This document shows positions 12,552-64,000 of a stretch of DNA of 64,000 bases, piece after piece. The stretch is from the NCBI GenBank assembly GCA_040905525.1, contig JBBDRJ010000013.1, positions 231,919 to 295,918 on the forward strand. The letters are read 5' to 3'. The stretch comes from Actinomycetota bacterium. Its GTDB lineage: Bacteria > Actinomycetota > JAICYB01. Under the pieces are notes generated by a model, which was not told the DNA's origin, searched no databases, and saw only the letters and a program-made list of their open reading frames with translations. A program made the position numbers and the translations under genes. Positions within the stretch are counted from its first letter, which is position 1. Every line of letters starts with the position of its first letter.

Positions 12552-12823
12552 CTCACCCTCCTTGTGTAGTTCTGCCTCTCATCGCCTCCGCCTTCCTCGC
12601 TTCGGCACAAAGCGCCTCAGCGATGGCTAGGGACGGCGGATCCCGCTGGCGGGGAAAAGGAAAACCGCGCAGGCAACTTCGCGGTCCCCAGGCGGGGTCC
12701 GTCGGCCGGCGCGGTGGCGTTACCTATAACAAGACGTTGGTGAGCTTAACATCATCTGCCGCGGTTTTGTCTATTCGAACGCTCATGTGGCGCGAAACGT
12801 CCGGCTCCGCTTAGCTTTCGAGC

Positions 12824-13261
12824 GTGACATTTGAGCACTACAACCAGAAGGTCGCCGATGCGTTCGTGAAGATGGCGTCCCACACGGCGCTCCCGGACTT
12901 CCTGGGCGTGAGCTTCACCGATGCCGGTCCGGGCCGGCTGGTCGCCGAGATGGAGGTCCGGCCCGAGATGCTCACCCCGTTCGGGAACCTCCACGGCGGC
13001 GTGGTCGCGGTTCTCGTCGACCACGTCCTGGGCTCGGTGATGTACCCGGTCATGCCGCCGGGCTGGTGGGCGGCCACTACGGAGTACAAGGTCAACAACC
13101 TGGCCCCCGTGCGCGAGGGAGGCCTGCGGGCCGAAGCGACCATCGTGGCGATGACCCGGCGGACCTCTGTGGTACGCGTCGACGTGACGAATGGAGAGCG
13201 ACTGGTCTGCGTGGCGCAGGGTACCTGTCTATTACAGGCGCCCCGGGCTGTAACCCCTTAG
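12824..13261 (+). CDS. PaaI/hotdog-fold thioesterase
   Basis: The NLHGGVVAVLVDHVLG motif is typical of PaaI-family 4HBT-like thioesterases. Confidence 0.75.
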   Translation: MTFEHYNQKVADAFVKMASHTALPDFLGVSFTDAGPGRLVAEMEVRPEMLTPFGNLHGGVVAVLVDHVLGSVMYPVMPPGWWAATTEYKVNNLAPVREGGLRAEATIVAMTRRTSVVRVDVTNGERLVCVAQGTCLLQAPRAVTP

Positions 13262-13271
13262 GCTTTCCGCC

Positions 13272-49903: not shown

Positions 49904-49914
49904 GGTCGGGTAGG

Positions 49915-50625
49915 TCAGCCGTTCGCTTGGACCGCAAGCCGCTCGTCTAATTTGGTGCGAACGAGGTTTCGCTTGTCGTCGTCGAGTGCTTTTGGTAATT
50001 GAAGAAGCCAGTTCACGAGATCTGGACCTTGGACAATCGGAACGCCATTGTGAATCTGGTCACTGGTTGCGATCGCACTTGACCCTTGTCCCCAAACCAC
50101 AACGATCGGACGAACCTTGACGTCCACACCTGAGTGCTTGAGTAGCAGCCCGACGCTGCGTGCATTGGCGGCCGCTTGACCCGCATAGGCCGTCTGGATC
50201 CTCAGAACCTGGCCGTTCGTTCGCGGTCGATCGTTGATCCACTTGACCTCCAGAGCGAGAACGCCTCCCGGCCCCACAACGATTGCGTCTACGTCTCCAC
50301 GCGTGAGCAAGATGCCTTGGACGAGATTCCACCCGTGTTTGCGCAGCTTCTTGAGCTCGTCGTGGGTGGCCTCCTCGCCCCAAGCGCCGAATCTGTGATT
50401 GATGGAGCCCGATCCGAACATGATCGCGTTGAAGACGGCCCATGCAGCGCCGACGGTCAAGGCGCCAAGCGCGAACATTCGGACGGAAGCATTTGAGTTG
50501 AGCCAGAGCAAGCTTCCGGGCACTGCCAGTACCGCGAGGATCATGCTAAGCCTTGGGAGCTCACGCCTAACGAAGGCTCGTTCGCGCTTTTGCAGCTCGG
50601 CTCGTGGATACGTCTTGACTTTCAT
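49915..50625 (-). CDS. NERD domain nuclease-related membrane protein
   Basis: N-terminal TM. GDVDAIVVGPGGVLALEVKW is the NERD core. Confidence 0.7.
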   Translation of the reverse strand: MKVKTYPRAELQKRERAFVRRELPRLSMILAVLAVPGSLLWLNSNASVRMFALGALTVGAAWAVFNAIMFGSGSINHRFGAWGEEATHDELKKLRKHGWNLVQGILLTRGDVDAIVVGPGGVLALEVKWINDRPRTNGQVLRIQTAYAGQAAANARSVGLLLKHSGVDVKVRPIVVVWGQGSSAIATSDQIHNGVPIVQGPDLVNWLLQLPKALDDDKRNLVRTKLDERLAVQANG

Positions 50626-50760
50626 ACCTTCGTCATCGGCGAAGGTGCAGTGGAACTAAACGGTCCGGCTGATGCCCAGCTCCACCACTTGCCGAACAAA
50701 GGAACGAGCTCGATCTCCATGGAAAGCCGGGCGTCCGGCTCCGGAGACGTAAGCCAATTA

Positions 50761-51177
50761 CTACTTGAGAGCTAGCTCTCGGAAGCTAGTCCTCGTGGCG
50801 ATGAATATCCGAGGGCCGGTTAGCGCCGTAACCCGCTCGATGTCAGACCATCGAGCGACGGCGATGCCAAGCTCCCCCCAAGTAGTTGGATCGCGACGAA
50901 CGTCGAGTACCACCAGACGAAGAGCGTTCTCTTTAACTGCGTTTATCTCCACCGACTTCTTCGTGATCTGCCGGTCGCGCGAGATAACGATCCAATGTCG
51001 AGCGGCGACCTCTGGGATCCATTCCGGATCCTTGGCTTGCCGGCGTATCGGACACTTCGGACGGCCGCGGCTTGGATCTCCGGGATCTCCCGCGTATGTG
51101 GTGTCGTAACGCGCCTGAACTAGACTCTTACCGAGAGCTATTAGATCCGCGTCGATGTAATAGCGGATGTCTGCCAT
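50761..51177 (-). CDS. DUF5615-like PIN-fold putative toxin
   Basis: MADIRYYIDADL...WIVISRDRQI pattern, adjacent to the DUF433 protein. Confidence 0.5.
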   Translation of the reverse strand: MADIRYYIDADLIALGKSLVQARYDTTYAGDPGDPSRGRPKCPIRRQAKDPEWIPEVAARHWIVISRDRQITKKSVEINAVKENALRLVVLDVRRDPTTWGELGIAVARWSDIERVTALTGPRIFIATRTSFRELALK

Positions 51178-51186
51178 CGACCGACA

Positions 51187-51897
51187 TCACGCCGCAGTGA
51201 GAATGTGGGGCCAGTCGGTTGCTTCGTAGGCGAGAGCGGCGATCACATCGTCTTTCGTCAAACCGTATGCATCGGCCAACGCCTCAACGGGCTCTCCCGC
51301 ATCGGCCTTCTCCTTAAGGACGGAAGTCGAAACGCCCCCGACGGCTGGAACTCCAAAACGGATCTCGGGATCAATCACGACCGGTGAGGATTTGCCAAGA
51401 GGACGAATCCGAGCGGCGATCGCCGCGGGGCCTCGTCCGTCAAATTCCACGCGCGCCAAGAAGTGCTCAGCGATCGGCAGGAAGACTTCTTGGCCGGTCG
51501 TCGGCTCGAGAAGGATGGGCATAAGCCCGGGCTCGCCGCGGATGTGCTCACTTGCTTCGAGCAAGAGCCTCCGCCCCGGCCCAACCCAAGGCCGAGCTGT
51601 TGCAAGAGGGTAGGGGACCTTGAGCTCGGTTCTGAGCTTTGTCATGAACTCTCTTAGGCGCCACAGCTTCACCTGTAGCGCCTTTCGGTATCCGGCGAGA
51701 TAGCCGGCTTCGACCACCTCACCCCAGGTCAATACAGCCGAGCCGGTTGGTTCCGCCCGCAAGACCGGGGGATAGGTCTTCCCTCTGCGCTCGCCTCCTT
51801 CGAGCCACCAGCGCAGGGTGGACGGAGGCACGCGGAGAACGCCGGCGGCGACGCTCACCTCGTACAGCTCTCGATCCAGGGCGGATGGCGCGGCCAT
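51187..51897 (-). CDS. DUF433 domain protein with N-terminal HTH-like extension (putative antitoxin/regulator)
   Basis: The C-terminal VIDPEIRFGVPAVGGVSTSVLKEKADAGEPVEALADAYGLTKDDVIAALAYE matches DUF433. The N-terminus has the HTH-like segment LRVPPSTLRWW. Confidence 0.6.
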   Translation of the reverse strand: MAAPSALDRELYEVSVAAGVLRVPPSTLRWWLEGGERRGKTYPPVLRAEPTGSAVLTWGEVVEAGYLAGYRKALQVKLWRLREFMTKLRTELKVPYPLATARPWVGPGRRLLLEASEHIRGEPGLMPILLEPTTGQEVFLPIAEHFLARVEFDGRGPAAIAARIRPLGKSSPVVIDPEIRFGVPAVGGVSTSVLKEKADAGEPVEALADAYGLTKDDVIAALAYEATDWPHILTAA

Positions 51898-51935
51898 GTT
51901 TGGACTCTAGCGTGCCCTACCGGCAGACAGAACTA

Positions 51936-52763
51936 TCAGCTCTGTCTCCTCTTCTTGTTCGCGACGATGTTCGTCAGGAACCGGGCCGAAGAAGCGGCCG
52001 ACTCCACATCGCCGGCGCTGAGGTCGTCCATGTCGACGTCGGTCACAGCGACCCCCTTCGCGCACGCGTAGTCCATGGCCGACTCCTTGTGCCGCTGGTC
52101 GCGGAGCTCGGTTCGCTGCAAGTAGTAGTGGCTGATCATGTGGAAGACCTCGCCGTGGCCGTACGAGAAGAGAACCGCCACTGGCGCTTCGCCGTACTTG
52201 CCCTCGAGCTCCTTCGAGCGCACGAGCACCTTCACGCGCTCGGCGTTCAGGACGCGGATCGGGTAGGACGAACCCTCGAGCCACCACAGCGGCTCCTCGC
52301 CAGGGTCGATCACGCCCTGGAGGAACGGGTTGTCCGGCTCGGCGATCTCGATGCGCACGACGTCGTCCGAGGTCGGACGGTCATTATACGCGACCGTGTT
52401 CTGGAAGGCCGGCTCGATCACGTTGCGCAGAGCCCAGTCGGTGGTGAACAGGCTCCCGCCGTCGGCGACGAAGTCGCGGATCTGAACGATCGCGCCGGGG
52501 GAGACGTTGCCCGGGCAGTTGATGACGACTAGCTGCTCGAGACGCAGGACGATCGATTCGACCTGCGATGCCTGGACGCGCGTGTGCGGCATCTCGAGGG
52601 CGTCGAGGACGAGGTGGATGTGGTCGTAGGTGCCGTCCACGACGACGATGTCCGAGGCCTGGACGGTCCGGACGGCCTCGGCGTCCAAGGGGGCCTCGTT
52701 GGCCAGCCGTTCCCGGGCAATCTGGGCGCCGGCCCGGTAGGCGCGTGTTCGCTTCTCATCCAT
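51936..52763 (-). CDS. Hypothetical protein, possibly ThuA/class I glutamine amidotransferase-like fold
   Basis: IVVVDGTYDHIHL...LVVINCPGN...FVADGGSLFTTDWA pattern. Strong RBS gaggaggga before ATG 52763. Confidence 0.35.
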   Translation of the reverse strand: MDEKRTRAYRAGAQIARERLANEAPLDAEAVRTVQASDIVVVDGTYDHIHLVLDALEMPHTRVQASQVESIVLRLEQLVVINCPGNVSPGAIVQIRDFVADGGSLFTTDWALRNVIEPAFQNTVAYNDRPTSDDVVRIEIAEPDNPFLQGVIDPGEEPLWWLEGSSYPIRVLNAERVKVLVRSKELEGKYGEAPVAVLFSYGHGEVFHMISHYYLQRTELRDQRHKESAMDYACAKGVAVTDVDMDDLSAGDVESAASSARFLTNIVANKKRRQS

Positions 52764-52788
52764 GACTCCCTCCTCGCATCGTACGTAT

Positions 52789-52817
52789 GCTAATAGCATA
52801 ATACTAACGCTAATAGC
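52789..52817. promoter_or_regulatory. Two copies of GCTAATAGC (near-palindromic) 20 bp apart in the divergent promoter region
   Basis: AT-rich 100-bp intergenic region between the ThuA-like gene (-) and the XRE regulator (+). Repeats at 52789-52797 and 52809-52817. Confidence 0.3.
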
Positions 52818-52864
52818 GACAAAATGCGTATTGAGAGCGTAGGACGCGGGATATAGTCGAGGCC

Positions 52865-53362
52865 ATGGTTGAGCGAAGCCGCAGGTCAGAGCGTCCGCCG
52901 GGCCCCGACGCGCACGCCGCCGCGCTGGGTCACGCGATCAAGGTTCTCCGGACCGATCAGGGGATGGACCGGGCCGAGCTGGCCGAGGCGAGCGGGCTGT
53001 CGTACCCCTACCTGTCCGAGATCGAGAACGGGAAGAAGCGTCCGTCGTCGCGAGCTCTCGAGTCGCTGGCCGAGGCGCTGGGCCTGCGGGCGCACGAGCT
53101 CCTGGCGGCCGCGGACTCCCGTGTCGAGATGGTCGAGGGGGCCGAGGTGGATGCCGCCTACCTTATGGCCGAAGCTCCGGCCCCGGGCTCACCTCGCCGG
53201 CGGAGCTGGTTCAGGGACGAACCGATGAGGGTTGCTTCATTGCGGGCTTCGGCTCCGGGCCACACCGCGGATCTTGCGCGGGAGCTGGGAGAACTGCTGA
53301 CGAGGCTGACGGCCGAGGACGCCGATAGAGTGCTCGATCTCGCACGGCGACTGGCGCGCTGA
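52865..53362 (+). CDS. XRE-family helix-turn-helix transcriptional regulator
   Basis: LGHAIKVLRTDQGMDRAELAEASGLSYPYLSEIENGKKRPSSRALESLAEALGL is an HTH_XRE domain. Confidence 0.8.
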   Translation: MVERSRRSERPPGPDAHAAALGHAIKVLRTDQGMDRAELAEASGLSYPYLSEIENGKKRPSSRALESLAEALGLRAHELLAAADSRVEMVEGAEVDAAYLMAEAPAPGSPRRRSWFRDEPMRVASLRASAPGHTADLARELGELLTRLTAEDADRVLDLARRLAR

Positions 53363-53452
53363 AGCTTGCAGAGGCAGGAATGTCACACTTGATCATCACG
53401 CTCGATTGAGGGGGTTCTGACTCGAGCAGCGAATGCGGGAGACAATTGATCA

Positions 53453-54355
53453 ATGGGAACTAGGGTTCGAGCGGGACTTCGTGGGGCTTCGGCTCGCTTG
53501 GGAGTAGTAGAAGCGGCGGACGTCGCGCGGCTCATCCTGGATTTGGAGCGGGCAATGCAACAGTCCGCGCTCGCAGTCCTCGGGCGGCCGGACGCCCGAG
53601 GCCGACGTGGCCGAACGATCGAACAGTCCGCGAGGTGGCGCCTCCGGGCGATCTCCGAGGGCAGTGTTGTGGTGGAAATGGAGCTTCCGGAGAGGGTCGC
53701 AGAAGCGGACGCGCTCGAACTTGACGTACAGAACCTCGCGGAGGAAGCAATCCACAAAGCGTTGCGAGTCGTGACCAACGAGGACGCCACTCCTGAAGTG
53801 GCTGCCTCCCTTGCCGAATTGTCTAACGACCTCGATATCGGCGAGCGCTACGAAGGGCTCTGGATTGAGGTCGATGGTCCGAAGCCACGCCGTGCCGAGA
53901 TTGATTCGGGCGTGCGTGAACGCCTGCGGGAGTTAGCGACGACGCGTGCTGATCGCAATGCCAAGCGTGACAAGGTGACCGGAACTTTGTATGAGGCCGA
54001 CTTCGAGAAGAACACCGCTCATCTCCGTATTCCTGAGGGCAAGTCCGTAAGGGTGTCTTTTCGAGATGCGATGGCGGACGACATCCAGATGGCGCTTCGT
54101 CATCCAGCAGAACTCGAGGGCGAGATCGAATATGACCCTCGGACGTCGATGGCGGTCGCTGTCGAGCTTCGCTCAGTTCGGCGAGCCGATCAGCTCATGA
54201 TTGGGCTTGACACAGGTGAGTTCTGGCGCAACCCGACGATTGAAGAACTCAGGCAGGCGCACGGTGTGGCGCCGATTGAAGATCTCGACTCCTTGCGCAT
54301 TTCAGACGCCTCGGATGAGGAGCTGGAGGCCTTCCTCGAAGCGCTGAGCGGGTGA
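53453..54355 (+). CDS. Hypothetical 300-aa protein translationally coupled to the PIN protein
   Basis: Clean ORF with no recognisable family. GTGA overlap with the PIN gene. Confidence 0.5.
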   Translation: MGTRVRAGLRGASARLGVVEAADVARLILDLERAMQQSALAVLGRPDARGRRGRTIEQSARWRLRAISEGSVVVEMELPERVAEADALELDVQNLAEEAIHKALRVVTNEDATPEVAASLAELSNDLDIGERYEGLWIEVDGPKPRRAEIDSGVRERLRELATTRADRNAKRDKVTGTLYEADFEKNTAHLRIPEGKSVRVSFRDAMADDIQMALRHPAELEGEIEYDPRTSMAVAVELRSVRRADQLMIGLDTGEFWRNPTIEELRQAHGVAPIEDLDSLRISDASDEELEAFLEALSG

Positions 54356-54780
54356 ACGCATCTGAAGTTCGCCCAGGTCCCCTTCTATTGGACACCGACG
54401 TCGTCTCATTTCTCATCTCTGGTAAAGGTGAGCACGCACGGTTCGGAGAGCTCATCCGCGGGCATCTTCTGGTGGTGTCGTTCGCGACGGTGGCCGAATT
54501 GCTTGTCGGTGCGGCCATCGCGGGGTGGGGCGAGCGGAAGATCAGCCAACTCGAAGACAGTCTGAAAGCGTATGTGGTCGTTCCCGGAACTGAGGCAGTG
54601 GCGCGAGCGTGGGCGAGGCTCTCTGCCAGATTCAGGGATCAGGTGAGCGAGAACGACCTCTGGATCGCTGCCTCGTCGCTGGCTCAAGTCGATCCGCCGC
54701 CAATCGTGACGAACAATCTCCGGCACTTCCGACCGATCGCCGACGAGTTTGCCTTGGAGCTCGTCCACCCCGATTTGTAG
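54352..54780 (+). CDS. PIN domain (VapC-like) nuclease
   Basis: LLLDTDVVSFLI...ENDLWIAASSLA... acidic residues in PIN topology. 142 aa. Confidence 0.75.
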   Translation: MNASEVRPGPLLLDTDVVSFLISGKGEHARFGELIRGHLLVVSFATVAELLVGAAIAGWGERKISQLEDSLKAYVVVPGTEAVARAWARLSARFRDQVSENDLWIAASSLAQVDPPPIVTNNLRHFRPIADEFALELVHPDL

Positions 54781-54844
54781 GCCCCAGAAGTGGGGCCGTT
54801 GACGGTGTAGGTGGCCCGGTCATACGGTGCTCGCGGAGGGCTTA

Positions 54845-57800
54845 ATGAACGTCTTTGAGTTGCGGAAGCGTCTCATCAATGACTATTCGTCGTACGTCCG
54901 CAGCTTCATCAATATCCGCGATGAGCGAATCCGCCAGACGGTCGACCGCGACCTCGATGCGGGACTACTCTGGCCCGAGCCTCGTATCGGTCTGAACCCC
55001 TCGTTCGAAACGGGTGGCTGGATCGACGAACTCGTCGATTCCGGGCTCCTGCTCGAGGAGTGTCGCCGCATCTTCCGCATCCGCAAGACCGCCGAAGGTG
55101 CTGAAGGCGAACCAATGCGACTGCACCGCCATCAGGTCGATGCGATCAACGCCGCGAAGACGGGCAAGAACTACGTCCTCACGACGGGGACCGGTTCGGG
55201 CAAGAGCCTCGCGTACATCGTCCCGATCGTGGACCACGTCCTTCGCGCGGGTAGCGGTCGCGGCATAAAAGCGATCGTCGTGTATCCGATGAACGCACTG
55301 GCCAACAGCCAGGCCGGCGAGCTCACGAAGTTCCTCAGCTTCGGCTACCCGGATGGGAGGGGTCCGGTCACCTTCCGGAAGTACACGGGCCAGGAGTCCG
55401 ACGAGGAGCGCAACGAGATCATCGCGTCACCGCCAGACATCCTCTTGACGAACTACGTGATGCTCGAGCTGATCCTCACGCGCGTGAAGGAGAAGGGACT
55501 CATCCTCGCGGCTCGTGGCTTGCGGTTCCTTGTTCTGGATGAGCTCCACACGTACCGAGGCAGGCAGGGCGCGGATGTAGCACTGCTTGTCCGCCGGACG
55601 CGCGAAGCGTGCGAGGCACGAGAGCTCCAATGCGTCGGGACGTCCGCGACGCTCGCAACGCAGGGCTCCTTCCCGGAGCAGCGCGAAGAGATCGCGCGCG
55701 TCGCTTCGTTGCTCTTCGGTTCCGTAGTCCCCGACGAGAACGTGATCGGTGAGACCCTCAGGCGAGAGACGGGCGGCATCCCGAACGCAGAGCAACTGAC
55801 GACGCGGCTCGGCTCCCAAGCCGATCCGCCAGCTGACTACGACGGGTTCGTCGCCGATCCGCTGTCGTCGTGGATCGAGACGACGTTCGGCATCGAAGAG
55901 CGTGAAGGGCGCTTGGTCCGAACTCCTCCACGCGCGGTCGGCGGTCCCGGAGGCGCCGCCGAGCAGCTCAGCACGTTAACTGAAGTCGGCGCGGAGACGT
56001 GCCAGACCGCGATCGAGCGCCAGCTCCTCGCCGGGTACGGCGCGGAGAACCCCGACACCCGGTTCCCGGTGTTCGCCTTCCGGCTCCACCAGTTCATCAG
56101 CCGTGGCGACACCGCGTACGCGACGATCGAGCCAGAGGACGAGCGCTACATCACGACGCAACCACAACAGTTCGTTCCCGGCGATCGCAGCAAGCGCCTC
56201 TTCCCACTGGTCTTCTGTCGCGAGTGCGGTCAGGAGTACTACTCGGGACAACTCGCACAGCGCGAGGGCGCACCGGTTCTGGAGCAGCGCGATCCCGAGG
56301 AACGGATCGCGACCGAGGAGGAGGTCCCAGGCTACCTGTACTTCAACACCGCTTCGCCGTGGTCCGAGACCGACGAATCACGCGTCCCTGAGGACTGGAT
56401 CGAGGAGCGTCCGGACGGCAAGCGCATCCGTCTCGACCGACGCAAGTGGCTCCCCAAGCCTCTTGAGGTCGATCCGCTCGGGCACATCGACCGAGGCGGG
56501 CTACAAGGCCACTTCATCGAAGCGCCGTTCAGGTTCTGCTTGACGTGTGGTGTCACGTACGGTGGGAGGCTCAGACAGGACTTCACCAAGGTCGGGATGC
56601 TCGGCTCGGAAGGTCGAAGTACGGCGACGACGATCCTCAGCCAATCGGTCGTCCGGACGCTCCGGGAGATGGTCGAGGGCGCTCCCGAGAACGAGATCCA
56701 GAACGTCACACCGAAACTGCTTTCTTTCACCGACAACCGACAGGACGCGGCTCTTCAGGCCGGACACTTCAACGACTTTGTCGATGTGGGGCTTCTCCGG
56801 TCCGCGCTGTACAGAGCGGTACTCGCTGCCGGAACCCCGGGCCTCACACACGACGTGCTCACGCAGCGCGTCTTCGACGAGCTCGCACTTCCGTTCGAGA
56901 ACTATGCGGCCAATCCCGCGGCCGAGTTCAAAGCCCGGACCGACACCGAGCGCGCGCTGCGCGACGTCCTCGGCTACCGCTTGTACCTCGACCTTCGGCG
57001 GGGATGGCGCATCAGCTCGCCGAACCTGGAGCAGTGCGGGCTGCTCGAGGTCGCCTACGAATCGCTCGACGAGGTCTGCGAGGCGGAACGCGTCTGGAAC
57101 GACTGCCACGACGCGCTAGTGGGTGCGACCGCAGAGAGGCGGAAGCAAGTGTCGCGCACCCTTCTGGACCACATGCGCCGCGAGCTCGCGATCAAGGTCG
57201 ACTACCTGGGTGCCGACTTCCAGGAGCGCTTGCGTCAGACGTCGAGCCAACGGCTCATCTCCCCATGGGCGCTCGACGATCAAGAGGAGCCGGAGCACGC
57301 CGCGGTCATGCTGCCGCGCGCGCGGCGGCCCGACGACTACCGCGGCTGGAGCTACCTCTCGCCTCGCAGCGGGTTCGGCATCTACCTACGCCGCGAGCTC
57401 GGGTTCAAAGGTCTGGCGGACACCGAGGTCGTCACGAAGCAGCTCCTCGCCGCGCTGGAGCGTGGAGGGCTCGTCGAGAAGGTTCTCGAGACGAAGGACG
57501 ACGGTCCTGATGGCTACCAGATCCCGGCCTCAGCGTTCGTCTGGACGGCAGGCGACGGCACGCGAGCCTTCCATGACCCGATCCGTGTTCCGCATCCTTC
57601 GAAGGAAGGCGTTCGACCGAACCCGTTCTTCGTGGCCTTCTACAAGACGATCGCCGCGCAGGGTCGAGGCTTGCGAGCAGGTGAGCACACCGCCGCCGTG
57701 CCCTACGACAAGCGCATCGAGCGCGAGGAAGCGTTCAGGCAAGCACGCCTCCCCGTTCTGTTCTGCTCGCCGACGATGGAGCTCGGCGTCGACATCGCCG

Positions 57801-60010
57801 ACCTGAACATCGTCAACATGCGGAACGTCCCGCCGACTCCGGCCAACTACGCTCAGCGGTCAGGCCGCGCGGGACGGAGCGGCCAACCGGCGCTCGTGTT
57901 CACCTACTGCTCGGCCGGGAGTCCCCACGACCAGTACTTCTTCCGCCACCAGCAGGAGATGGTCTCCGGACAGGTAGCGCCGCCGCGGATCGACCTCACG
58001 AACGAGGACCTGATCCGTTCCCACGTTCATGCGATCTGGCTCACCGCAGCTGGGATGAGCCTCGGTGGATCGCTCAAGGACGTACTCGAGCTGTCGGGCG
58101 AGCCGCCGACGCTCCGCTTGCTCGACTACATCCAGGCAGATCTCTCGAAGCCGGAAGCCCGCGCGGCCGGCAGGGACAGATCCGCTCGCGTGCTCGCCGA
58201 CGTCGAGTCGCTGTTAGCGGGGTCAGACTGGTGGACCCCCGAGTGGTTGGACGACGTACTGAATGCGATGCCGCAATCGTTCGAGGCGGCGTGCGATCGG
58301 TGGCGCAGCCTATACAGCGCGGCCCGGAATCAAGCCGAGCTCCAGCACAAGATCATCATCGACCACTCTCGACAACCCGCCGACAAGCGCCAGGCGGAAC
58401 GGCTTCGCCGAGAGGCGGTCGCGCAGATGGATCTCCTCACCGCTGACACGGGCGACGCGCTCTTCCAATCCGACTTCTACAGCTACCGGTACTTCGCGAG
58501 CGAGGGCTTCCTGCCCGGCTACAGCTTCCCGCGGCTCCCGCTATCAGCGTTCGTGCCCGGCCGGCGTGGCACCCGTGGCACAGACGAGTTCCTCAACCGC
58601 CCTCGTTTCCTCGCCATCAGTGAGTTCGGCCCGCGCAACATCATCTATTACGAAGGTTCGAGGTTCGTAATCAACAAGGTGATCCTCCCGGTCGGAACGG
58701 AGGTCGAGGGGAGTGATCAACCCGTCCTCACGCGTTCGGTGAAGCAGTGCGACTCCTGCGGATACCTCCATCCTTTGGAGGGAGACGTCGGCCCGGATCT
58801 CTGTGAGGGATGCGGCGAGCCCCTCAACGCCGCGATGGACCACCTCTTCCGTCTGCAGAATGTCGCCACGAAACGCCGAGATCGCATCAACAGCGACGAG
58901 GAAGAGCGCACACGCCACGGTTACGACCTGCGTACGGGCCTCCGCTTCGCCCGCAAAGACGGGAGGACGCTGAAGCGGACGGCCTCGGTGCAGGCCGGCG
59001 ACACGGAGATCGGTCGCCTCGAGTACGGCCACACAGCAACGCTCTGGCGGATCAACCTGGGCTGGCGTCGCCGGGCCAACAAGCACGAGCACGGGTTCGT
59101 GCTCGACATGGAGCGCGGTTTCTGGGCGAGACGACAGGACGACCCTGTCAACGACGATCCCGACGACCCAATGAGCGCGAGGACGATGCGCGTGATCCCG
59201 TTCGTCGAGGATCGGAAGAACTGTCTCACCCTGGAGCTCGGCGATCGCGCCTCGGCCGAGCTTCTTTCATCGCTCCAGGCCGCGTTGAAGAACGCGATCA
59301 CGGTGACCTATCAACTGGAGGACCACGAGTTGGCCGCCGAGCCTTTGCCGTCGCCGCAGGATCGGCGTCGACTGCTCATCTACGAGGCATCGGAGGGCGG
59401 GGCCGGCGTTCTCCGCAGACTCGTCGAAGACCCGGGCGCACTCGGCGTCGTCGCGAAGCGAGCTCTGGAGCTCTGCCACTACGACCCAGAAACCTTCGAA
59501 GACCGAGGACGCGCGCCGGGCGCAACGGAGGCTTGCGAAGCGGCTTGCTACGACTGCCTGATGAGCTATATGAACCAACCGGAGCACCGGCTCCTCGACC
59601 GCAAGCTCGTGAAGGACCTGCTCGTGAATCTCGCGGGCGCACGCATCATGACGTCGCCTGTACAGATCGGTCGTGGCGAGCACCTCGACCGACTCAAGCG
59701 CGTCGCAGCATCGGAGCTTGAGCGGCGCTGGCTCGACTTCATCGACGGAGCCGGGCACACCCTTCCCGATCGGGCGGGCACGCTCCTCGAAGCGGCCGGG
59801 ACGAGGCCCGACTTCCTGTACGACAGCGACTTCGCGGCGATCTACATCGACGGCCCGCCGCACGACTTCCCCGATCGGCAGGTACGCGACCGTGAGAAAC
59901 ACGCACGACTCGAGGACCTCGGCTACACCGTGATCCGTTTCGCCGCGGATGCGCAGTGGGCCGAGCTCATCGGCCGCTATCCGTGGGTGTTTGGCAAGAG
60001 GAACGGATGA
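54845..60010 (+). CDS. Giant DExH-box helicase fused to DUF1998-like module and C-terminal DUF559/Vsr-like nuclease domain (DrmA+DrmB-like or DruE-like)
   Basis: Helicase motifs I TGTGSGKSLAYIVPIV, II FLVLDELHTYRG, VI ANYAQRSGRAGRSG. DUF1998-like region YSYRYFASEGFLPGYSFPRLP plus a zinc ribbon CDSCGYLHP...CEGCGEP. C-terminal AIYIDGPPHDF...HARLEDLGYTVIRF. RBS ggaggg before ATG 54845 (alternative GTG at 54827). Confidence 0.8.
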   Translation: MNVFELRKRLINDYSSYVRSFINIRDERIRQTVDRDLDAGLLWPEPRIGLNPSFETGGWIDELVDSGLLLEECRRIFRIRKTAEGAEGEPMRLHRHQVDAINAAKTGKNYVLTTGTGSGKSLAYIVPIVDHVLRAGSGRGIKAIVVYPMNALANSQAGELTKFLSFGYPDGRGPVTFRKYTGQESDEERNEIIASPPDILLTNYVMLELILTRVKEKGLILAARGLRFLVLDELHTYRGRQGADVALLVRRTREACEARELQCVGTSATLATQGSFPEQREEIARVASLLFGSVVPDENVIGETLRRETGGIPNAEQLTTRLGSQADPPADYDGFVADPLSSWIETTFGIEEREGRLVRTPPRAVGGPGGAAEQLSTLTEVGAETCQTAIERQLLAGYGAENPDTRFPVFAFRLHQFISRGDTAYATIEPEDERYITTQPQQFVPGDRSKRLFPLVFCRECGQEYYSGQLAQREGAPVLEQRDPEERIATEEEVPGYLYFNTASPWSETDESRVPEDWIEERPDGKRIRLDRRKWLPKPLEVDPLGHIDRGGLQGHFIEAPFRFCLTCGVTYGGRLRQDFTKVGMLGSEGRSTATTILSQSVVRTLREMVEGAPENEIQNVTPKLLSFTDNRQDAALQAGHFNDFVDVGLLRSALYRAVLAAGTPGLTHDVLTQRVFDELALPFENYAANPAAEFKARTDTERALRDVLGYRLYLDLRRGWRISSPNLEQCGLLEVAYESLDEVCEAERVWNDCHDALVGATAERRKQVSRTLLDHMRRELAIKVDYLGADFQERLRQTSSQRLISPWALDDQEEPEHAAVMLPRARRPDDYRGWSYLSPRSGFGIYLRRELGFKGLADTEVVTKQLLAALERGGLVEKVLETKDDGPDGYQIPASAFVWTAGDGTRAFHDPIRVPHPSKEGVRPNPFFVAFYKTIAAQGRGLRAGEHTAAVPYDKRIEREEAFRQARLPVLFCSPTMELGVDIADLNIVNMRNVPPTPANYAQRSGRAGRSGQPALVFTYCSAGSPHDQYFFRHQQEMVSGQVAPPRIDLTNEDLIRSHVHAIWLTAAGMSLGGSLKDVLELSGEPPTLRLLDYIQADLSKPEARAAGRDRSARVLADVESLLAGSDWWTPEWLDDVLNAMPQSFEAACDRWRSLYSAARNQAELQHKIIIDHSRQPADKRQAERLRREAVAQMDLLTADTGDALFQSDFYSYRYFASEGFLPGYSFPRLPLSAFVPGRRGTRGTDEFLNRPRFLAISEFGPRNIIYYEGSRFVINKVILPVGTEVEGSDQPVLTRSVKQCDSCGYLHPLEGDVGPDLCEGCGEPLNAAMDHLFRLQNVATKRRDRINSDEEERTRHGYDLRTGLRFARKDGRTLKRTASVQAGDTEIGRLEYGHTATLWRINLGWRRRANKHEHGFVLDMERGFWARRQDDPVNDDPDDPMSARTMRVIPFVEDRKNCLTLELGDRASAELLSSLQAALKNAITVTYQLEDHELAAEPLPSPQDRRRLLIYEASEGGAGVLRRLVEDPGALGVVAKRALELCHYDPETFEDRGRAPGATEACEAACYDCLMSYMNQPEHRLLDRKLVKDLLVNLAGARIMTSPVQIGRGEHLDRLKRVAASELERRWLDFIDGAGHTLPDRAGTLLEAAGTRPDFLYDSDFAAIYIDGPPHDFPDRQVRDREKHARLEDLGYTVIRFAADAQWAELIGRYPWVFGKRNG

Positions 60011-62811
60011 GCTTCGCTGTCGGAACGCTCGTCAGAGCCCGCGGACGCGAATGGGTCGTTCTCCCTGAGTCGGAGGGGGATCTACTCGTCTTGCGACCGC
60101 TCGGCGGGACGGACGAAGAGGTCGCCGGTGTTCTGACATCGATCGAGGACGTCGAGCCGGCGACATTCGCGCTGCCCGATCCGGAGCGCGTCGGCGACTT
60201 CGTCTCGGCCCGTCTGCTGCGTGATGCGCTCCGGCTCGGTTTCCGGTCGTCAGCAGGCCCGTTCCGCTCGTTCGGACGGATTGCGGTCGACCCTCGTCCG
60301 TATCAGCTCGTTCCGTTACTCATGGCTCTGCGGATGGACCCCGTTCGGCTTCTCATTGCCGACGACGTCGGCATCGGGAAGACCGTGGAAGCCGGGTTGA
60401 TCGCTCGTGAGCTGCTGGACCGGGGCCTCGCGAAGCGGATGGCGGTGCTGTGCCCGCCGCACCTCGCGGAGCAGTGGCAGAACGAGCTCGCGTCGAAGTT
60501 CCATCTGGACGCCGAACTCGTGCTCGCATCGACCGCATCACGGCTCGAGCGAGGCCTTCCGCGCGACCTCACGATCTTCGACGTGAATCCGTGGGTCATC
60601 GTGTCGACCGACTTCATCAAGGCGGAGCGACGACGGCACGAGTTCCAGCGGACGTGCCCGGAGCTCGTGATCGTCGACGAGGCGCACACGTGCGCGTTCG
60701 ATCCAGCGACGCGGAGCGCCCGTCACCAGCGCCACGAGCTCATCAAGGGACTCACGTCGGACGAGAGCAGACACCTCATCCTCGTCACGGCGACACCGCA
60801 CAGTGGCAACGAGGGAGCGTTCCGTTCGCTCCTCGAGCTGCTGGACCCGAAGCTCGGCGCGCTGCCCGAAGATCTCAGCGGGCCGGAGAACCAGCGACAC
60901 CGCCGCGAGCTCGCGCGTTACCTCGTCCAGCGGCAGCGCGGCGACATCAAGCACTTCCTCGGTGACACCCCGTTCCCAGATCGAGAAGAAGGGGAAGCTG
61001 ACTACCGCTTGAGTCCCGAGTACCGGAAGCTCTTCGACCGGGTCGTCGACTACGCCCGCGAGACCGTGCGGGACCCGGCCGGCGGCGCCCATCGCCAGCG
61101 TGTCCGTTGGTGGTCGGCGCTCGCTCTGCTGCGGTCGATGGCATCGAGCCCAGCGGCGGCGGCCGCGACACTCCGCGAACGATCGAAGACCGCGGACACC
61201 GACAGCGTCGACCGGGCGGACGAGATCGGTCGGCGCGAGATCCTCGATGAGGGCGACACCGAAGAGGACGAGGTCTCCGATGTCACGCCCGGCGGGGACT
61301 TCAGTGAGAACGGTGACGCCAAAGGTCCTCGCAAGCGGCTGCTCGGGTTCGCTCGCGAGGCGGACAAGCTGTGCGGCGACAAGGACGCCAAGCTCATCAA
61401 GGCCGTCGCGCTCATCAAGGGTCTCTTGAAAGACGGCTATAGCCCGATCGTGTTCTGCAGGTACATCCCGACCGCGGACTACCTCGCGGCCGAACTGCGT
61501 AAGCGGCTCGCTAAGACGGTCACGGTCGAGGCGGTGACGGGTCGGCTGCCCGCGCCGGAGCGCGAAGCGCGGGTCGATGCGCTCGGAGAGAGCGAACCCC
61601 GTGTGCTCGTCGCCACGGACTGCCTCTCGGAAGGGATCAACCTCCAGGACCATTTCGACGCCGTGCTGCACTACGACCTCTCGTGGAACCCAACCCGTCA
61701 CGAGCAACGCGCGGGCCGCGTCGACCGGTTCGGCCAGAGTCGCGACTTCGTCCGTGTGCTGACGTACTACGGGACGGACAACAGGATCGACGGCATCGTG
61801 CTGGACGTCCTACTGCGCAAGCACGAAGCCATTCGGAAGCGCTTGGGCGTGTCGGTGCCGGTGCCGGCCAATTCGCAGAGCGTCGTCGAGGCGATCCTCG
61901 AGGGGTTGCTCCTCCGGAGGGAGGAACAGGCCGGCCTGGAGCAGCTCGTCCTGTCCGAGGAGATGTTCCAGCCGGAACGTCACGGCCTGCACGACGACTG
62001 GGAGCAGGCGGCCGAACGCGAGAGGCGCTCGCGCTCGATCTTCGCTCAGGAGTCAATCAAGGTCGAAGAGGTCGCCGCCGAGTTGGACGAGGCACGAGCC
62101 GCCGTGGGCGGTGGCGCAGACCTGGCCGACTTCGTCCGTTCGGCACTGAAGGTCCATCGTGCCGTCGTGTCGGGAACCGATCCGGTGAGGATCGATCTGA
62201 AGGACGTCCCGCGCGCGCTCAAGGATCTCCTCGGCGAGTCGGGGAGTCTCACCGCGACATTCGAGCCCGCGGGCAACGCAGACATGTACCTCCAGCGGAC
62301 CCATCCGTTCGTCGAAGGCCTCGCCTCCTACGTCATCGACTCCGCACTCGATCCGGTCGGTGATGGCGTCGCTCGGAGATGCGGCGCCATCCGCACGAAA
62401 GCCGTTACGTCACGCACCACGCTGTTGCTGTGCCGCCTCCGCATGCACCTCATCACGGTGCGAGAAGGCACGGAACACGCGCTGCTCGCCGAAGATGCGG
62501 CGTTGATGGCCTTCGAGGGATCACCGGAGTCACCCAATTGGCTCGATCCGAACGCCGCCGAAGCTCTCCTCGACACGAAGCCGGACGCCAACGTCCCGGC
62601 CGGTCAGGCCACGGAGTTCGTCCGCAAAGTGATCGATGCCTACGACCGATGGGCAACGGCACTCGACGCGCACGCGAAGTCCCGAGCCGAGGAGCTCCTC
62701 GACGCGCACAAGCGGGTTCGCGCGGCGACGCGGTCAACCGGCGTTCGGTACACCGTTGAACCCCAGCTCCCACCGGACATCCTTGGCATCTACGTCTTCT
62801 TGCCGGCCTGA
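60007..62811 (+). CDS. SNF2-family helicase (DrmD-like)
   Basis: LIADDVGIGKTVEAG (Walker A), ELVIVDEAHTCA (DEAH box), LILVTATPHSGNEG, C-terminal helicase motifs LVATDCLSEGINLQDHFDAVLHYDLSWNPTRHEQRAGRVDRFGQ. ATGA overlap with the upstream gene. Confidence 0.85.
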   Translation: MSFAVGTLVRARGREWVVLPESEGDLLVLRPLGGTDEEVAGVLTSIEDVEPATFALPDPERVGDFVSARLLRDALRLGFRSSAGPFRSFGRIAVDPRPYQLVPLLMALRMDPVRLLIADDVGIGKTVEAGLIARELLDRGLAKRMAVLCPPHLAEQWQNELASKFHLDAELVLASTASRLERGLPRDLTIFDVNPWVIVSTDFIKAERRRHEFQRTCPELVIVDEAHTCAFDPATRSARHQRHELIKGLTSDESRHLILVTATPHSGNEGAFRSLLELLDPKLGALPEDLSGPENQRHRRELARYLVQRQRGDIKHFLGDTPFPDREEGEADYRLSPEYRKLFDRVVDYARETVRDPAGGAHRQRVRWWSALALLRSMASSPAAAAATLRERSKTADTDSVDRADEIGRREILDEGDTEEDEVSDVTPGGDFSENGDAKGPRKRLLGFAREADKLCGDKDAKLIKAVALIKGLLKDGYSPIVFCRYIPTADYLAAELRKRLAKTVTVEAVTGRLPAPEREARVDALGESEPRVLVATDCLSEGINLQDHFDAVLHYDLSWNPTRHEQRAGRVDRFGQSRDFVRVLTYYGTDNRIDGIVLDVLLRKHEAIRKRLGVSVPVPANSQSVVEAILEGLLLRREEQAGLEQLVLSEEMFQPERHGLHDDWEQAAERERRSRSIFAQESIKVEEVAAELDEARAAVGGGADLADFVRSALKVHRAVVSGTDPVRIDLKDVPRALKDLLGESGSLTATFEPAGNADMYLQRTHPFVEGLASYVIDSALDPVGDGVARRCGAIRTKAVTSRTTLLLCRLRMHLITVREGTEHALLAEDAALMAFEGSPESPNWLDPNAAEALLDTKPDANVPAGQATEFVRKVIDAYDRWATALDAHAKSRAEELLDAHKRVRAATRSTGVRYTVEPQLPPDILGIYVFLPA

Positions 62812-62815
62812 CCTG

Positions 62816-64000
62816 ATGGCACGTAAGCCGCTCTTTGCGACGATCCGCACCGAAGGCGGGTTGCTGCCATCGGACCTCCTCGCGCGAGTAGCGAGCGATG
62901 ACCGCGACCTGCCGGGACTGGGTCCTGAGGACTACCACCTGGCGAAGGGCGAGCGGATCGGCGAGGCCATCACGAGGTCATGGAACCGGCTGATCGGCGC
63001 CTGGGCATCCTTGCGGACCCACCTTGGCGAGACGAAGTCGGACGACGCCGCGACCGGACTTACCCGAGACCGTTTCCTGCTCCCGTTGTTCGCCGAGCTC
63101 GGCTTCGGGCGCCTGGCCCCATCGAAGGGGATCGCGGTCGGCGACGCGAGCTTCCCCGTCTCTCACGCGTGGGGCGCGGTCCCGATCCATCTCGTCGGGG
63201 CTCGCGTCGACCTCGACCGTCGCACCGCCGGCGTCGCGGGCGCCGCGCGGAGCTCGCCGCACTCGCTCGTGCAGGACCTACTCAACCGGTCCGACGAGTA
63301 CCTGTGGGGCATCGTCGCGAACGGTGAGCGGCTGCGGTTGCTGCGGGACAACTCGTCGATGACTAGGCAAGCGTTCGTCGAGTTCGATCTGGTCGCCATG
63401 TTCGAGGGCGAGGTCTACGCCGACTTCGTCGTGCTGTGGCTGACTTGCCACCAGTCACGTTTCGAGGCCGAGCGTCCGGAAGCGTGCCTTCTTGAGCGAT
63501 GGACGCAAGCTGCTGTTGAGCAGGGAACGCGCGCCCTCGAACAGCTCAGGGACGGCGTCGAGCGAGCCATCCAAGATCTGGGCCAGGGGCTCCTCTCGAA
63601 TGCCTCGAATGGCGCGCTGCGAGATCGCCTGCGCTCTGGCGAACTGTCGACGCAGGACTACTACCGGCAACTCCTGCGTGTGGTGTACCGGTTGCTGTTC
63701 CTCTTCGCCGCCGAGGACCGCAACCTCCTTCTCACGAGGGAGCACGACGCTGACGCCTCGCGGGAGCGATACGTGCGCTACTATTCAACAACCCGGTTGC
63801 GTTCTCTCGCGCGAACACGACGAGGTTCGACGCATCCGGACCTGTGGCGAGCGCTGCGGGTCGTGATGGACGCCCTGGGTAGCGAAGGTCGACCCGAGCT
63901 CGGCCTTCCCGTGCTAGGCAGCTTCCTTTGGTCGAAGGAAGCCGTCGGCGCTCTCGAAGGCTGTGAGATCGCGAACAAGGATCTTCTCGCTGCCGTTGCG
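62816..64000 (+). CDS. N-terminal part of a large DNA methyltransferase/type IIG-like protein (PglX/DrmMI family candidate), 3' partial
   Basis: Frame 2 is open from ATG 62816 to the window end (395 codons). The N-terminal helical region with LRLLRDNSSMTRQAFVEFDL is reminiscent of the N-domain of PglX/MmeI-like enzymes. The catalytic motifs would lie beyond the window. Confidence 0.45.
   Translation, partial: MARKPLFATIRTEGGLLPSDLLARVASDDRDLPGLGPEDYHLAKGERIGEAITRSWNRLIGAWASLRTHLGETKSDDAATGLTRDRFLLPLFAELGFGRLAPSKGIAVGDASFPVSHAWGAVPIHLVGARVDLDRRTAGVAGAARSSPHSLVQDLLNRSDEYLWGIVANGERLRLLRDNSSMTRQAFVEFDLVAMFEGEVYADFVVLWLTCHQSRFEAERPEACLLERWTQAAVEQGTRALEQLRDGVERAIQDLGQGLLSNASNGALRDRLRSGELSTQDYYRQLLRVVYRLLFLFAAEDRNLLLTREHDADASRERYVRYYSTTRLRSLARTRRGSTHPDLWRALRVVMDALGSEGRPELGLPVLGSFLWSKEAVGALEGCEIANKDLLAAVA

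What the first reader, a model, noticed from the sequence alone, without database searches (positions are those of the whole stretch)
59740..60010. In-cis DUF559/Vsr-like PD-(D/E)xK nuclease domain at the C-terminus of the helicase-DUF1998 giant
The last ~85 residues are DFLYDSDFAAIYIDGPPHDFPDRQVRDREKHARLEDLGYTVIRFAADAQWAELIG. They follow the pattern hydrophobic-E/D-hydrophobic-DG...H...D...R...L...GY.V+RF, typical of DUF559 (very-short-patch-repair-like restriction-endonuclease fold) domains. In canonical DISARM the nuclease is a separate PLD protein (DrmC). A helicase-DUF1998 protein carrying its own endonuclease-fold domain would give a single-polypeptide sensor-motor-effector. To my knowledge this arrangement has not been described for DISARM or Druantia.
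Basis: inference. Interest (0 to 1): 0.65.

Follow-up and report, generated by a model that had tools for sequence, protein, structure and literature searches.

The report
Known ARMADA helicase with fused Vsr nuclease
The giant helicase does end in a Vsr-type DNA-cutting domain with all its key residues intact, but this fusion is the published hallmark of the ARMADA type I anti-phage system, so the find is correct but ordinary.

Summary
The 1727-aa ORF at 54827..60010 is a YprA-family (DEAD + Helicase_C + DUF1998/MZB) helicase. Its last ~100 residues form a Vsr/DUF559-type PD-(D/E)xK nuclease fold.

- **Profile and fold evidence:** Pfam DUF559 scores at threshold for this copy, and 53 of 57 homologues match it. 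The AF2 model has pLDDT 91, and its best PDB match is the Vsr-like I-Bth0305I domain (TM 0.66-0.70). hhalign to E. coli Vsr gives E 4e-5.
- **Catalytic residues:** D1662, D1675, H1679 and D1688 align to Vsr D51, H64, H69/H72 and D97. All four are 100% conserved in 81 loci.
- **Novelty claim fails:** The gene heads a three-gene operon (YprA-Vsr, then a BrxHII/DrmD-like SNF2 helicase, then a PglX/DrmMI-like methyltransferase). This is ARMADA type I as defined by Bell et al. 2025 (PMC12458937), who state that its YprA helicase carries a C-terminal predicted active Vsr nuclease.
- **Link to listed members:** Full-length relatives (56% and 46% identity) come from Limnoglobus roseus and Deinococcus radiodurans pMP1, records their Table S1 lists as carrying ARMADA type I helicases.
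- **Related experimental work:** Helicase-coupled in-cis nuclease action has been shown for Druantia III DruE, which uses a PLD domain.
- **Still open:** No ARMADA Vsr domain has been mutated or assayed, and type I is untested experimentally.

The parts
54827..60010 (+). YprA-family helicase-nuclease (ArmC-like), 1727 aa from GTG 54827. NCBI calls it 1721 aa from ATG 54845 (MEX0874890.1).
   Evidence: Pfam finds DEAD, Helicase_C and MZB. The best PADLOC hit is DruE3 at 3e-91. The best PDB sequence hits are 9tu7 and 9wae (chains of 2108 and 1970 aa deposited as helicases, which I take to be DruE), then MrfA/YprA 6znp. It is 56% identical over residues 1-1718 to an ORF from the Limnoglobus roseus genome, a record listed as carrying an ARMADA type I helicase, and 46% identical to the D. 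radiodurans pMP1 helicase. Accession.
55127..55657 (+). RecA1 / DEAD-box domain (residues 101-277)
   Evidence: Pfam PF00270, E 2.2e-26
57665..57883 (+). RecA2 / Helicase_C core (residues 947-1019)
   Evidence: Pfam PF00271, E 7.9e-12
59273..59560 (+). DUF1998 / MrfA Zn-binding domain (residues 1483-1578)
   Evidence: Pfam PF09369, E 5.8e-10. Cysteines at 1570, 1574 and 1577.
59711..60007 (+). Vsr-type PD-(D/E)xK nuclease domain (residues ~1629-1727), the feature in the finding
   Evidence: DUF559 scores 20.8 bits against a gathering score of 20.6, and 53 of 57 homologues match it. AF2 pLDDT is 91.3. Foldseek top hit is 3r3p, TM 0.66/0.70. hhalign to Vsr gives E 4.3e-5. A profile search against PDB finds 3hrl at E 0.22.
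59810..59812 (+). Codon of D1662 (RPDF), aligned to Vsr D51
   Evidence: Conserved in 81 of 81 loci. Aligned by hhalign.
59849..59851 (+). Codon of D1675 (IYIDG), aligned to Vsr H64
   Evidence: Conserved in 81 of 81 loci. Aligned by hhalign.
59861..59863 (+). Codon of H1679 (DGPPH), aligned to the Vsr His cluster (H69/H72)
   Evidence: Conserved in 81 of 81 loci. hhalign places it at H72; gap placement makes H69 equally possible.
59888..59890 (+). Codon of D1688 (VRDRE), aligned to Vsr D97
   Evidence: Conserved in 81 of 81 loci. Aligned by hhalign.
60007..62811 (+). BrxHII/DrmD/RapA-like SNF2 helicase (ArmA-like), 934 aa. Its ATG overlaps the upstream stop codon (ATGA).
   Evidence: PADLOC hits: DpdE model PDLC02853 at 1e-257, DrmD at 7e-88, BrxHII at 3e-58. 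NCBIfam hits: DrmD 325 bits, RapA 1e-36. Pfam finds SNF2-rel_dom and Helicase_C. Called as a 934-aa gene, MEX0874891.1.
62816..64000 (+). N-terminal 395 aa of a PglX/DrmMI-like N6-adenine DNA methyltransferase (ArmB-like), cut by the window end
   Evidence: PADLOC DrmMI at 1.4e-12 and type IIG REase-MTase at 2e-8. In the source contig the gene is at least 1047 aa and carries N6_Mtase, MmeI_Mtase and Eco57I Pfam hits.

Best explanation
The 3' end of the giant gene encodes a Vsr-type PD-(D/E)xK endonuclease domain fused to a YprA-family (MrfA/DruE-like) SF2 helicase. This is the first gene of an ARMADA type I anti-phage operon: YprA-Vsr, then a BrxHII-like SNF2 ATPase, then a PglX-like adenine methyltransferase.

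Shown here:
- the fold of the domain;
- invariance of the catalytic-position residues D1662, D1675, H1679 and D1688;
- the conserved three-gene cassette across many phyla;
- full-length or domain similarity to genes in records that list ARMADA type I helicases.

Inferred mechanism, by analogy with DISARM, ARMADA II genetics and Druantia III DruE biochemistry:
1. The methyltransferase marks host DNA.
2. The YprA motor engages ssDNA or duplex-ssDNA junctions of unmodified invading DNA and translocates 3'-5' using ATP.
3. The strand is delivered to the protein's own C-terminal Vsr-type active site, which uses divalent metal ions held by the conserved Asp/His residues, as in Vsr, and nicks or degrades it.
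4. The SNF2 partner is needed for loading or for self/non-self discrimination.

The protein is therefore a motor-effector, but not a self-sufficient system.
For: **Domain identity**
- DUF559 is at the gathering threshold for this copy, and 53 of 57 homologues match it, best 1.7e-8.
- AF2 models have pLDDT 89.5 and 91.3.
- The Foldseek top hit is the Vsr-like homing endonuclease domain 3r3p (probability 1.00, TM 0.66/0.70). The other meaningful hits are PD-(D/E)xK nucleases such as VRR_NUC, FAN1, DdmD and PspGI.
- 3r3p itself matches E. coli Vsr by sequence at E 4e-4.
- hhalign of the 81-sequence family against Vsr gives E 4.3e-5 and aligns RPDF, (H/D)G and RD.

**Activity likely retained**
- D1662, D1675, G1676, P1677, H1679 and D1688 are 100% conserved in 81 loci. 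The record titles span many bacterial phyla and one MAG labelled as an archaeon.

**System assignment**
- YprA-Vsr, SNF2 and methyltransferase are co-linear in almost all 80 related loci. The upstream PIN, orf300 and HTH genes are not conserved with them.
- The gene order and partners match the ARMADA type I definition, and the C-terminal active Vsr domain matches.
- There is one Cys4 module in the OB region (C1308, C1311, C1326, C1329), as reported for type I.
- Relatives come from records listed as 'ARMADA Type I helicase' in Table S1: Limnoglobus roseus CP042425.1 (56% over the full length), D. radiodurans R1 pMP1 (46%), Nocardioides JS614 and D. radiophilus plasmids.

**Mechanistic analogy**
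- In ARMADA II all genes, the Walker motifs and the methyltransferase NPPW motif are required, and defence is non-abortive.
- DruE is an ATP-driven helicase-coupled nuclease with a MrfA-like 3'-5' core.
Against: - The Pfam DUF559 hit is marginal for this copy and below threshold on the full-length protein.
- The canonical second acidic residue of DUF559 (the E in ExDG) is Tyr here, at 98% conservation. The Vsr Zn-site cysteines and the intercalating Phe-Trp pair are absent.
- Bell et al. label the domain 'active?' in their Table S2.
- No nuclease-domain mutant or biochemical assay exists for any ARMADA protein, and type I has not been tested for defence.
- The methyltransferase is cut by the window end and by the contig end, so the completeness of this copy cannot be verified.
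Confidence: 0.85

Rival explanations
1. The C-terminal Vsr-like domain is catalytically inert. It would serve as a DNA-binding or protein-docking module, as proposed for the inactivated Vsr domains of Druantia I/II DruE. Cleavage, if any, would come from another protein.
For: Inactivated Vsr domains do exist in the sister YprA clades and as extra domains in ARMADA II ArmC. The ExD glutamate of DUF559 is replaced by Tyr here. The authors flag the domain as 'active?'. No activity data exist.
Against: The four positions that align with the Vsr catalytic residues are invariant in 81 diverse loci. Vsr itself also lacks the second acidic residue (Phe62-Thr63 at that place). No other nuclease gene is conserved in the three-gene cassette.
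Confidence: 0.12
2. The locus is a Druantia (type III-B-like) or DISARM class I variant rather than ARMADA. The Vsr domain would be an occasional substitution for the PLD nuclease.
For: The best PADLOC v2 hits of the helicase are DruE models (3e-91). The partners hit DrmD and DrmMI models. Bell et al. note that some Druantia III-like helicases carry a Vsr nuclease.
Against: No DruH or other Dru partner lies next to the gene; the upstream genes are a PIN, an unknown 300-aa ORF and an HTH, none conserved with the cassette. DrmA and DrmB are fused and no PLD DrmC is present. The NCBIfam DISARM models score far below cutoff: DrmD 325 against 610, DrmA 18 against 950. PADLOC v2 (2023) predates ARMADA. 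Records holding relatives are listed as carrying ARMADA type I helicases.
Confidence: 0.03
3. The DUF559-like motif is a chance resemblance in a non-nuclease C-terminal tail.
For: The Pfam score is only at threshold. phmmer of the tail against PDB finds nothing relevant. NCBIfam has no hit.
Against: Family-wide DUF559 hits, the hhalign match to Vsr, a confident AF2 PD-(D/E)xK fold with a Vsr-like top hit, and strong conservation of the motif.
Confidence: 0.01

Closest known systems
ARMADA type I (Bell et al. 2025, bioRxiv 10.1101/2025.09.15.676423 / PMC12458937). Listed examples include D. radiodurans R1 pMP1 DR_B0135 and Limnoglobus roseus QEL14823.1.
   Same: Same three genes in the same order: YprA helicase with a single C-terminal Vsr-type domain, a BrxHII-like SNF2 helicase, and a PglX-like methyltransferase. 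One Zn module in the OB region. 46-56% full-length identity to genes from records listed as carrying type I helicases. Actinomycetota host.
   Different: Nothing substantive. This copy is from an Actinomycetota MAG (GCA_040879475.1), and its methyltransferase is cut by the contig end. I could not confirm that this accession is in their Table S1, because the held copy of the file is cut.
ARMADA type II (E. coli ArmABCD; PMC12458937, PMC13463889)
   Same: YprA helicase (ArmC) with an active-looking Vsr domain, a BrxHII-like ArmA and a PglX-like ArmB. Experimentally a direct, non-abortive defence.
   Different: In type II the gene order is ArmA-ArmB-ArmC-ArmD, with an extra GajB-like/RelE helicase (ArmD). 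ArmC also carries additional inactive EEP and Vsr domains and two Zn modules in the OB region.
Druantia type III DruE (PDB 9tu7 and 9wae, which I take to be DruE; Loeff et al. 2026, bioRxiv 10.64898/2026.05.13.724313)
   Same: A giant YprA/MrfA-like helicase with DUF1998 and an in-cis C-terminal nuclease. ATP-driven, helicase-coupled DNA degradation has been shown biochemically.
   Different: The nuclease is a tandem PLD domain, not Vsr. The partner is the exonuclease DruH. There is no methyltransferase and no SNF2 helicase.
DISARM class I (DrmA, DrmB, DrmC, DrmD, DrmMI)
   Same: YprA-like helicase, DUF1998 module, SNF2 helicase (DrmD-like) and PglX-like adenine methyltransferase (DrmMI-like).
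   Different: In DISARM the helicase and DUF1998 are separate proteins, and the nuclease is a separate PLD protein (DrmC). Here all three functions are in one polypeptide and the nuclease is Vsr-type.
E. coli Vsr (1cw0/1vsr), the DUF559 protein 3hrl, and the I-Bth0305I catalytic domain 3r3p
   Same: PD-(D/E)xK variant fold. The conserved RPDF Asp, (H/D)G, His and RD Asp motifs.
   Different: No structural Zn site and no intercalating Phe-Trp pair as in Vsr. Tyr replaces the DUF559 ExD glutamate. The domain is fused to a 1600-aa motor rather than standing alone. T:G mismatch specificity is unlikely.

Membership tests
ARMADA type I | YprA-family helicase core with an OB-CON-DUF1998 module in one polypeptide | tested here: met
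   Pfam finds DEAD, Helicase_C and MZB. PDB sequence hits include 9tu7 and 9wae (taken to be DruE) and MrfA/YprA 6znp.
ARMADA type I | Single C-terminal Vsr-type nuclease domain that is predicted active | tested here: met
   The domain ends at the stop codon, with no EEP or second Vsr domain after it.
ARMADA type I | Adjacent BrxHII/RapA-like SNF2 helicase | tested here: met
   PADLOC BrxHII 3e-58 and DrmD 7e-88; NCBIfam RapA 1e-36. The start codon overlaps the upstream stop as ATGA.
ARMADA type I | Adjacent PglX-like DNA methyltransferase | tested here: met
   PADLOC DrmMI 1.4e-12 on the partial ORF. N6_Mtase and Eco57I Pfam hits on the >=1047-aa gene in the source contig.
ARMADA type I | Gene order YprA, then BrxHII-like, then PglX-like, with no GajB/RelE fourth gene | tested here: inconclusive
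   The order is met. The contig ends inside or at the methyltransferase, so a fourth gene cannot be excluded for this copy. The relatives L069 and L027 have only three co-directional genes.
ARMADA type I | Placement in the type I clade of the YprA tree | tested here: inconclusive
   No tree was built. The protein is 56% identical (full length) to an ORF from the L. roseus genome and 46% to the D. radiodurans pMP1 helicase. Its Vsr domain also hits genes in the Nocardioides JS614 and D. radiophilus plasmid records. All four records are listed as carrying 'ARMADA Type I helicase' in Table S1.
ARMADA type I | BrxA-like, Zn beta-barrel and MarR-like insertions; one Zn module in the OB region | tested here: inconclusive
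   Only the sequence was examined. CxxC pairs lie at 464/467 with 571/574, and at 1308/1311 with 1326/1329. This is consistent, but no structure was predicted for these regions.
ARMADA type I | Confers anti-phage defence | not testable with these tools
   Only type II has been tested experimentally.
DUF559 (PF04480) / Vsr-type PD-(D/E)xK | Pfam score at or above the gathering threshold | tested here: inconclusive
   20.8 bits against 20.6 on the isolated domain, and 16.8 on the full protein. 53 of 57 homologues match at E<=1e-3.
DUF559 (PF04480) / Vsr-type PD-(D/E)xK | alpha-beta-beta-beta-alpha-beta restriction-endonuclease-like fold | tested here: met
   AF2 secondary structure and Foldseek 3r3p TM 0.66/0.70.
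DUF559 (PF04480) / Vsr-type PD-(D/E)xK | Catalytic Asp (Vsr D51), His (H69) and Asp (D97) equivalents | tested here: met
   D1662, H1679 and D1688, plus D1675 at the H64 position, are invariant in 81 loci. The catalytic roles of the Vsr residues are from my own knowledge of Tsutakawa et al. 1999.
Vsr proper (PF03852, T:G mismatch endonuclease) | Structural Zn site (Cys66, His71, Cys73, Cys117) and DNA-intercalating Phe67/Trp68 | tested here: not met
   The aligned segment is DGPPHDF, with no Cys and no Phe-Trp pair. The residue roles in Vsr are from my own knowledge.
DISARM | Separate DrmA and DrmB proteins plus a PLD nuclease DrmC | tested here: not met
   The helicase and DUF1998 are fused. 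No PLD gene is in the cassette. The NCBIfam DrmA and DrmD models score far below cutoff.
Druantia | DruE together with DruH (type III), DruABCD (type I) or DruMFG (type II) | tested here: not met
   The neighbours are an HTH, an unknown 300-aa ORF, a PIN, an SNF2 helicase and a methyltransferase. Only partial DruE model matches were found.

The most novel reading that the evidence does not exclude
No ARMADA Vsr domain has been mutated or assayed, and type I has never been tested. It therefore remains possible that this domain is not a bulk-degradation effector like the PLD domain of DruE. It could instead be a structure- or site-specific nickase, true to its Vsr/homing-endonuclease ancestry, that the helicase licenses only at unmethylated or junction DNA. 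That would be a mechanistically distinct helicase-gated nicking mode of restriction.
Probability: 0.12. Interest if true: 0.45.

Novelty: already known. Interest (0 to 1): 0.15.

Why it matters
The locus adds one more Actinomycetota MAG example to a defence system that has already been catalogued thousands of times. Its value is confirmatory:

- The Vsr catalytic-position residues are invariant across 81 loci from many phyla. This supports the published prediction that the domain is active.
- It names four residues for the mutagenesis that the ARMADA papers have not yet done.

It does not reveal a new architecture.

Tried and rejected
- **PDB and NCBIfam on the tail alone.** phmmer of the C-terminal 169 aa against PDB gave only spurious hits. 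NCBIfam had no model for it.
- **Foldseek against PDB.** No hit reached E<1e-3 with either model. The conclusion rests on TM-score, probability and the nature of the top hits.
- **Profile against PDB.** The profile reached 3hrl only at E 0.22.
- **Accession look-up.** I searched for the window's accessions (MEX0874890.1, MEX2538952.1) in Table S1 of Bell et al. They were not found, but the stored file is cut, so this is uninformative.
- **Active-site geometry.** Model coordinates are not exposed to scripts, so I could not check whether the four residues cluster in space.
- **Rejected: upstream genes as part of the system.** The HTH, the 300-aa ORF and the PIN gene have no homologues next to the cassette in 80 related loci.
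- **Rejected: a Dpd system.** The SNF2 gene hits a 'DpdE' PADLOC model at 1e-257, but no Dpd genes are present, and the NCBIfam DpdE model scores 185 against a cutoff of 500.
Full report
**1. Observation**

The window carries a 1727-codon ORF at 54827..60010 on the + strand. NCBI calls the same gene as 1721 aa from ATG 54845, protein MEX0874890.1, in an Actinomycetota MAG (GCA_040879475.1, contig JBBDKJ010000005.1). Pfam finds DEAD (101-277), Helicase_C (947-1019) and the MrfA Zn-binding/DUF1998 domain (1483-1578). So 'helicase-DUF1998 giant' is correct.

**2. Is the C-terminus a DUF559/Vsr-like nuclease?**

- *Pfam.* PF04480 (DUF559) scores 16.8 bits on the whole protein, below the 20.6 gathering score. 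It scores 20.3-20.8 bits (E 4-5e-4) on the isolated tail, covering residues 1670-1708. For this copy alone the hit is marginal.
- *Homologues.* A homologue search with residues 1585-1727 returned 57 proteins, mostly gene fragments from short metagenome contigs. Several are already named 'very-short-patch-repair endonuclease' by JGI. Of the 57 sequences in the resulting alignment (the window's domain plus 56 of these hits), 53 match DUF559 at E<=1e-3, best 1.7e-8, and 14 also carry the MZB domain upstream.
- *Structure models.* AlphaFold2 with that alignment gave confident models. The 143-residue model has pLDDT 89.5 and the 103-residue core has pLDDT 91.3. Both show a helix, three strands, a long helix and a fourth strand.
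- *Fold search.* Foldseek against PDB put the catalytic domain of the homing endonuclease I-Bth0305I (3r3p) on top: probability 1.00, TM 0.66/0.70, rmsd 3.4 A over 99 columns. The other meaningful hits were PD-(D/E)xK nucleases such as VRR_NUC, FAN1, DdmD and PspGI. No E-value was below 1e-3. E. coli Vsr itself matches 3r3p by sequence at E 4e-4, so 3r3p is a Vsr-type domain.
- *Profile alignment to Vsr.* hhalign of an 81-sequence family alignment against E. coli Vsr (sequence verified as identical to 1cw0) gave E 4.3e-5 and probability 69%.

**3. Catalytic residues**

In 81 loci, all of the following are 100% conserved: D1662, F1663, Y1665, D1675, G1676, P1677, H1679, D1688, V1702, F1705, W1711, F1722 and G1723. 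The record titles of these loci span many bacterial phyla and one MAG labelled as an archaeon.

| Window residue | Motif | Aligned Vsr residue (hhalign) |
|---|---|---|
| D1662 | RPDF | D51 |
| D1675 | IYIDG | H64 |
| H1679 | DGPPH | H69/H72 cluster |
| D1688 | VRDRE | D97 |

D51, H69 and D97 are the residues I know as the Vsr metal-binding and catalytic set (own knowledge, Tsutakawa et al. 1999).

- The glutamate of the DUF559 ExDG motif (seen in 3hrl) is Tyr here, at 98% conservation. At that position Vsr has Phe62.
- The Vsr Zn-site cysteines and the Phe-Trp intercalating pair are absent.

The domain is therefore best called Vsr-type/DUF559-like. It is predicted to be active, but it is not a Vsr orthologue.

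**4. Context**

- The next gene (60007..62811, with ATGA start/stop overlap) is a BrxHII/DrmD/RapA-like SNF2 helicase.
- The third gene (62816 to the window end) is the N-terminus of a PglX/DrmMI-like adenine methyltransferase. In the source contig it is at least 1047 aa with N6_Mtase and Eco57I domains, and the contig ends there.
- A pattern scan of one genome per species found at least 576 loci encoding a relative of the domain.
- In the best 80 loci, nearly all that extend far enough show the same co-linear YprA-Vsr, SNF2 and methyltransferase cassette at 45-65% identity. The window's upstream HTH, 300-aa ORF and PIN genes are not conserved with it.
- In L069 and L027 the cassette is exactly three co-directional genes.
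- An exhaustive HMMER search of 1.84 billion cluster representatives found 719 proteins at E<=1e-3. The full-length ones are 1700-1823 aa with the domain at the extreme C-terminus.

**5. Comparison with what is known**

- *ARMADA definition.* Bell et al. 2025 (PMC12458937) define ARMADA type I as a YprA homologue first, followed by BrxHII-like and PglX-like genes. [quoted passage not shown] They also state that Druantia I/II DruE carry inactivated Vsr domains and that Druantia III DruE carries PLD domains.
- *Listed members.* Table S1 lists, as carrying 'ARMADA Type I helicase', the L. roseus genome CP042425.1, D. radiodurans R1 pMP1 (DR_B0135; also CP038665.1), Nocardioides sp. JS614 CP000508.1 and D. 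radiophilus CP086382.1.
- *Link to the window.* The window's protein is 56% identical over its full length to the L. roseus ORF and 46% identical to the D. radiodurans helicase. The D. radiodurans locus has the same helicase, helicase-related and methyltransferase order. The window's Vsr domain hits the DEAD/DEAH helicase genes of those plasmid records.
- *Zn module count.* The single Cys4 module in the OB region matches the type I description.
- *ArmC in E. coli.* mBio 2026 (PMC13463889) describes ArmC as a helicase/nuclease with Vsr-type domains.
- *Vsr fused to other helicases.* Vsr fused to a different helicase was also described in type III-B CoCoNuTs.
- *Experimental precedent.* The general idea of a YprA giant with an in-cis nuclease acting as an ATP-driven helicase-coupled nuclease has been demonstrated for Druantia III DruE.

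The statement that this arrangement has not been described is therefore wrong.

**6. Mechanism**

Shown: the fold, the conserved active-site positions, the operon and its distribution.

Inferred: the methyltransferase marks self DNA. The YprA motor (MrfA-like, 3'-5') engages ssDNA or junctions of unmodified invader DNA and feeds the strand to its own Vsr-type metal-dependent active site. The SNF2 partner is required, because in ARMADA II every gene, the Walker motifs of ArmA and ArmC, and the methyltransferase NPPW motif are all essential, and defence is direct and non-abortive.

No published ARMADA work has mutated or assayed the Vsr domain, and type I is untested. This is the one open point to which this locus speaks. 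It contributes a list of invariant residues to mutate.

**7. Verdict**

- Observation: confirmed.
- Fold interpretation: supported.
- System label: imprecise. The locus is ARMADA type I, not DISARM or Druantia.
- Novelty claim: refuted.
- Interest: low.

Noticed in passing
L018 5234..12859; L065 5243..12843 (also L003, L010, L013, L015, L049, L062, L066, L072): About 15 of 80 ARMADA type I-like loci differ from the window. Their YprA protein has an extra ~110-aa extension after the Vsr domain with no Pfam hit. Where the sequence extends far enough, a ~692-aa GajB-like UvrD helicase gene sits between YprA and the SNF2 gene. The extension and the extra gene co-occur in 10 of the 11 loci that show the gap. 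The main text of Bell et al. mentions a GajB-like helicase only for type II.
   Followed up: partly
window 47065..54780: The operon sits in a defence-island-like stretch near a contig end. The genes are: a Schlafen-group-3 helicase (47065..48984) overlapping an HNH_2 protein (48974..49903); a NERD protein (49915..50625, -); a PIN_10 and DUF433 pair (50761..51897, -); an HTH_3 protein (52865..53362); a 300-aa ORF with weak PADLOC PDC-M32A hits (53453..54355); and a PIN protein (54352..54780).
   Followed up: partly
window 60007..62811: The PADLOC v2 model 'DpdE PDLC02853' matches this SNF2 protein end to end at 1e-257, although the locus has no Dpd genes. The NCBIfam DpdE model scores only 185 bits against a cutoff of 500. 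That PADLOC model probably captures ARMADA-type BrxHII-like helicases and could mislabel such loci as Dpd.
   Followed up: no
L084 (D. radiodurans R1 pMP1, NZ_CP068793.1 157031..168527): The model organism D. radiodurans R1 carries the same cassette on megaplasmid pMP1, next to an ISDra1 transposase. Its methyltransferase is annotated as two separate CDSs (12158..13987 and 14087..15709 in the locus), so it may be split or disrupted.
   Followed up: no
L069 13242..18050 vs L027 13202..17341: The ARMADA type I methyltransferase ORF varies widely in length between relatives, about 1379 aa in L027 and 1602 aa in L069. This suggests variable extra domains.
   Followed up: no
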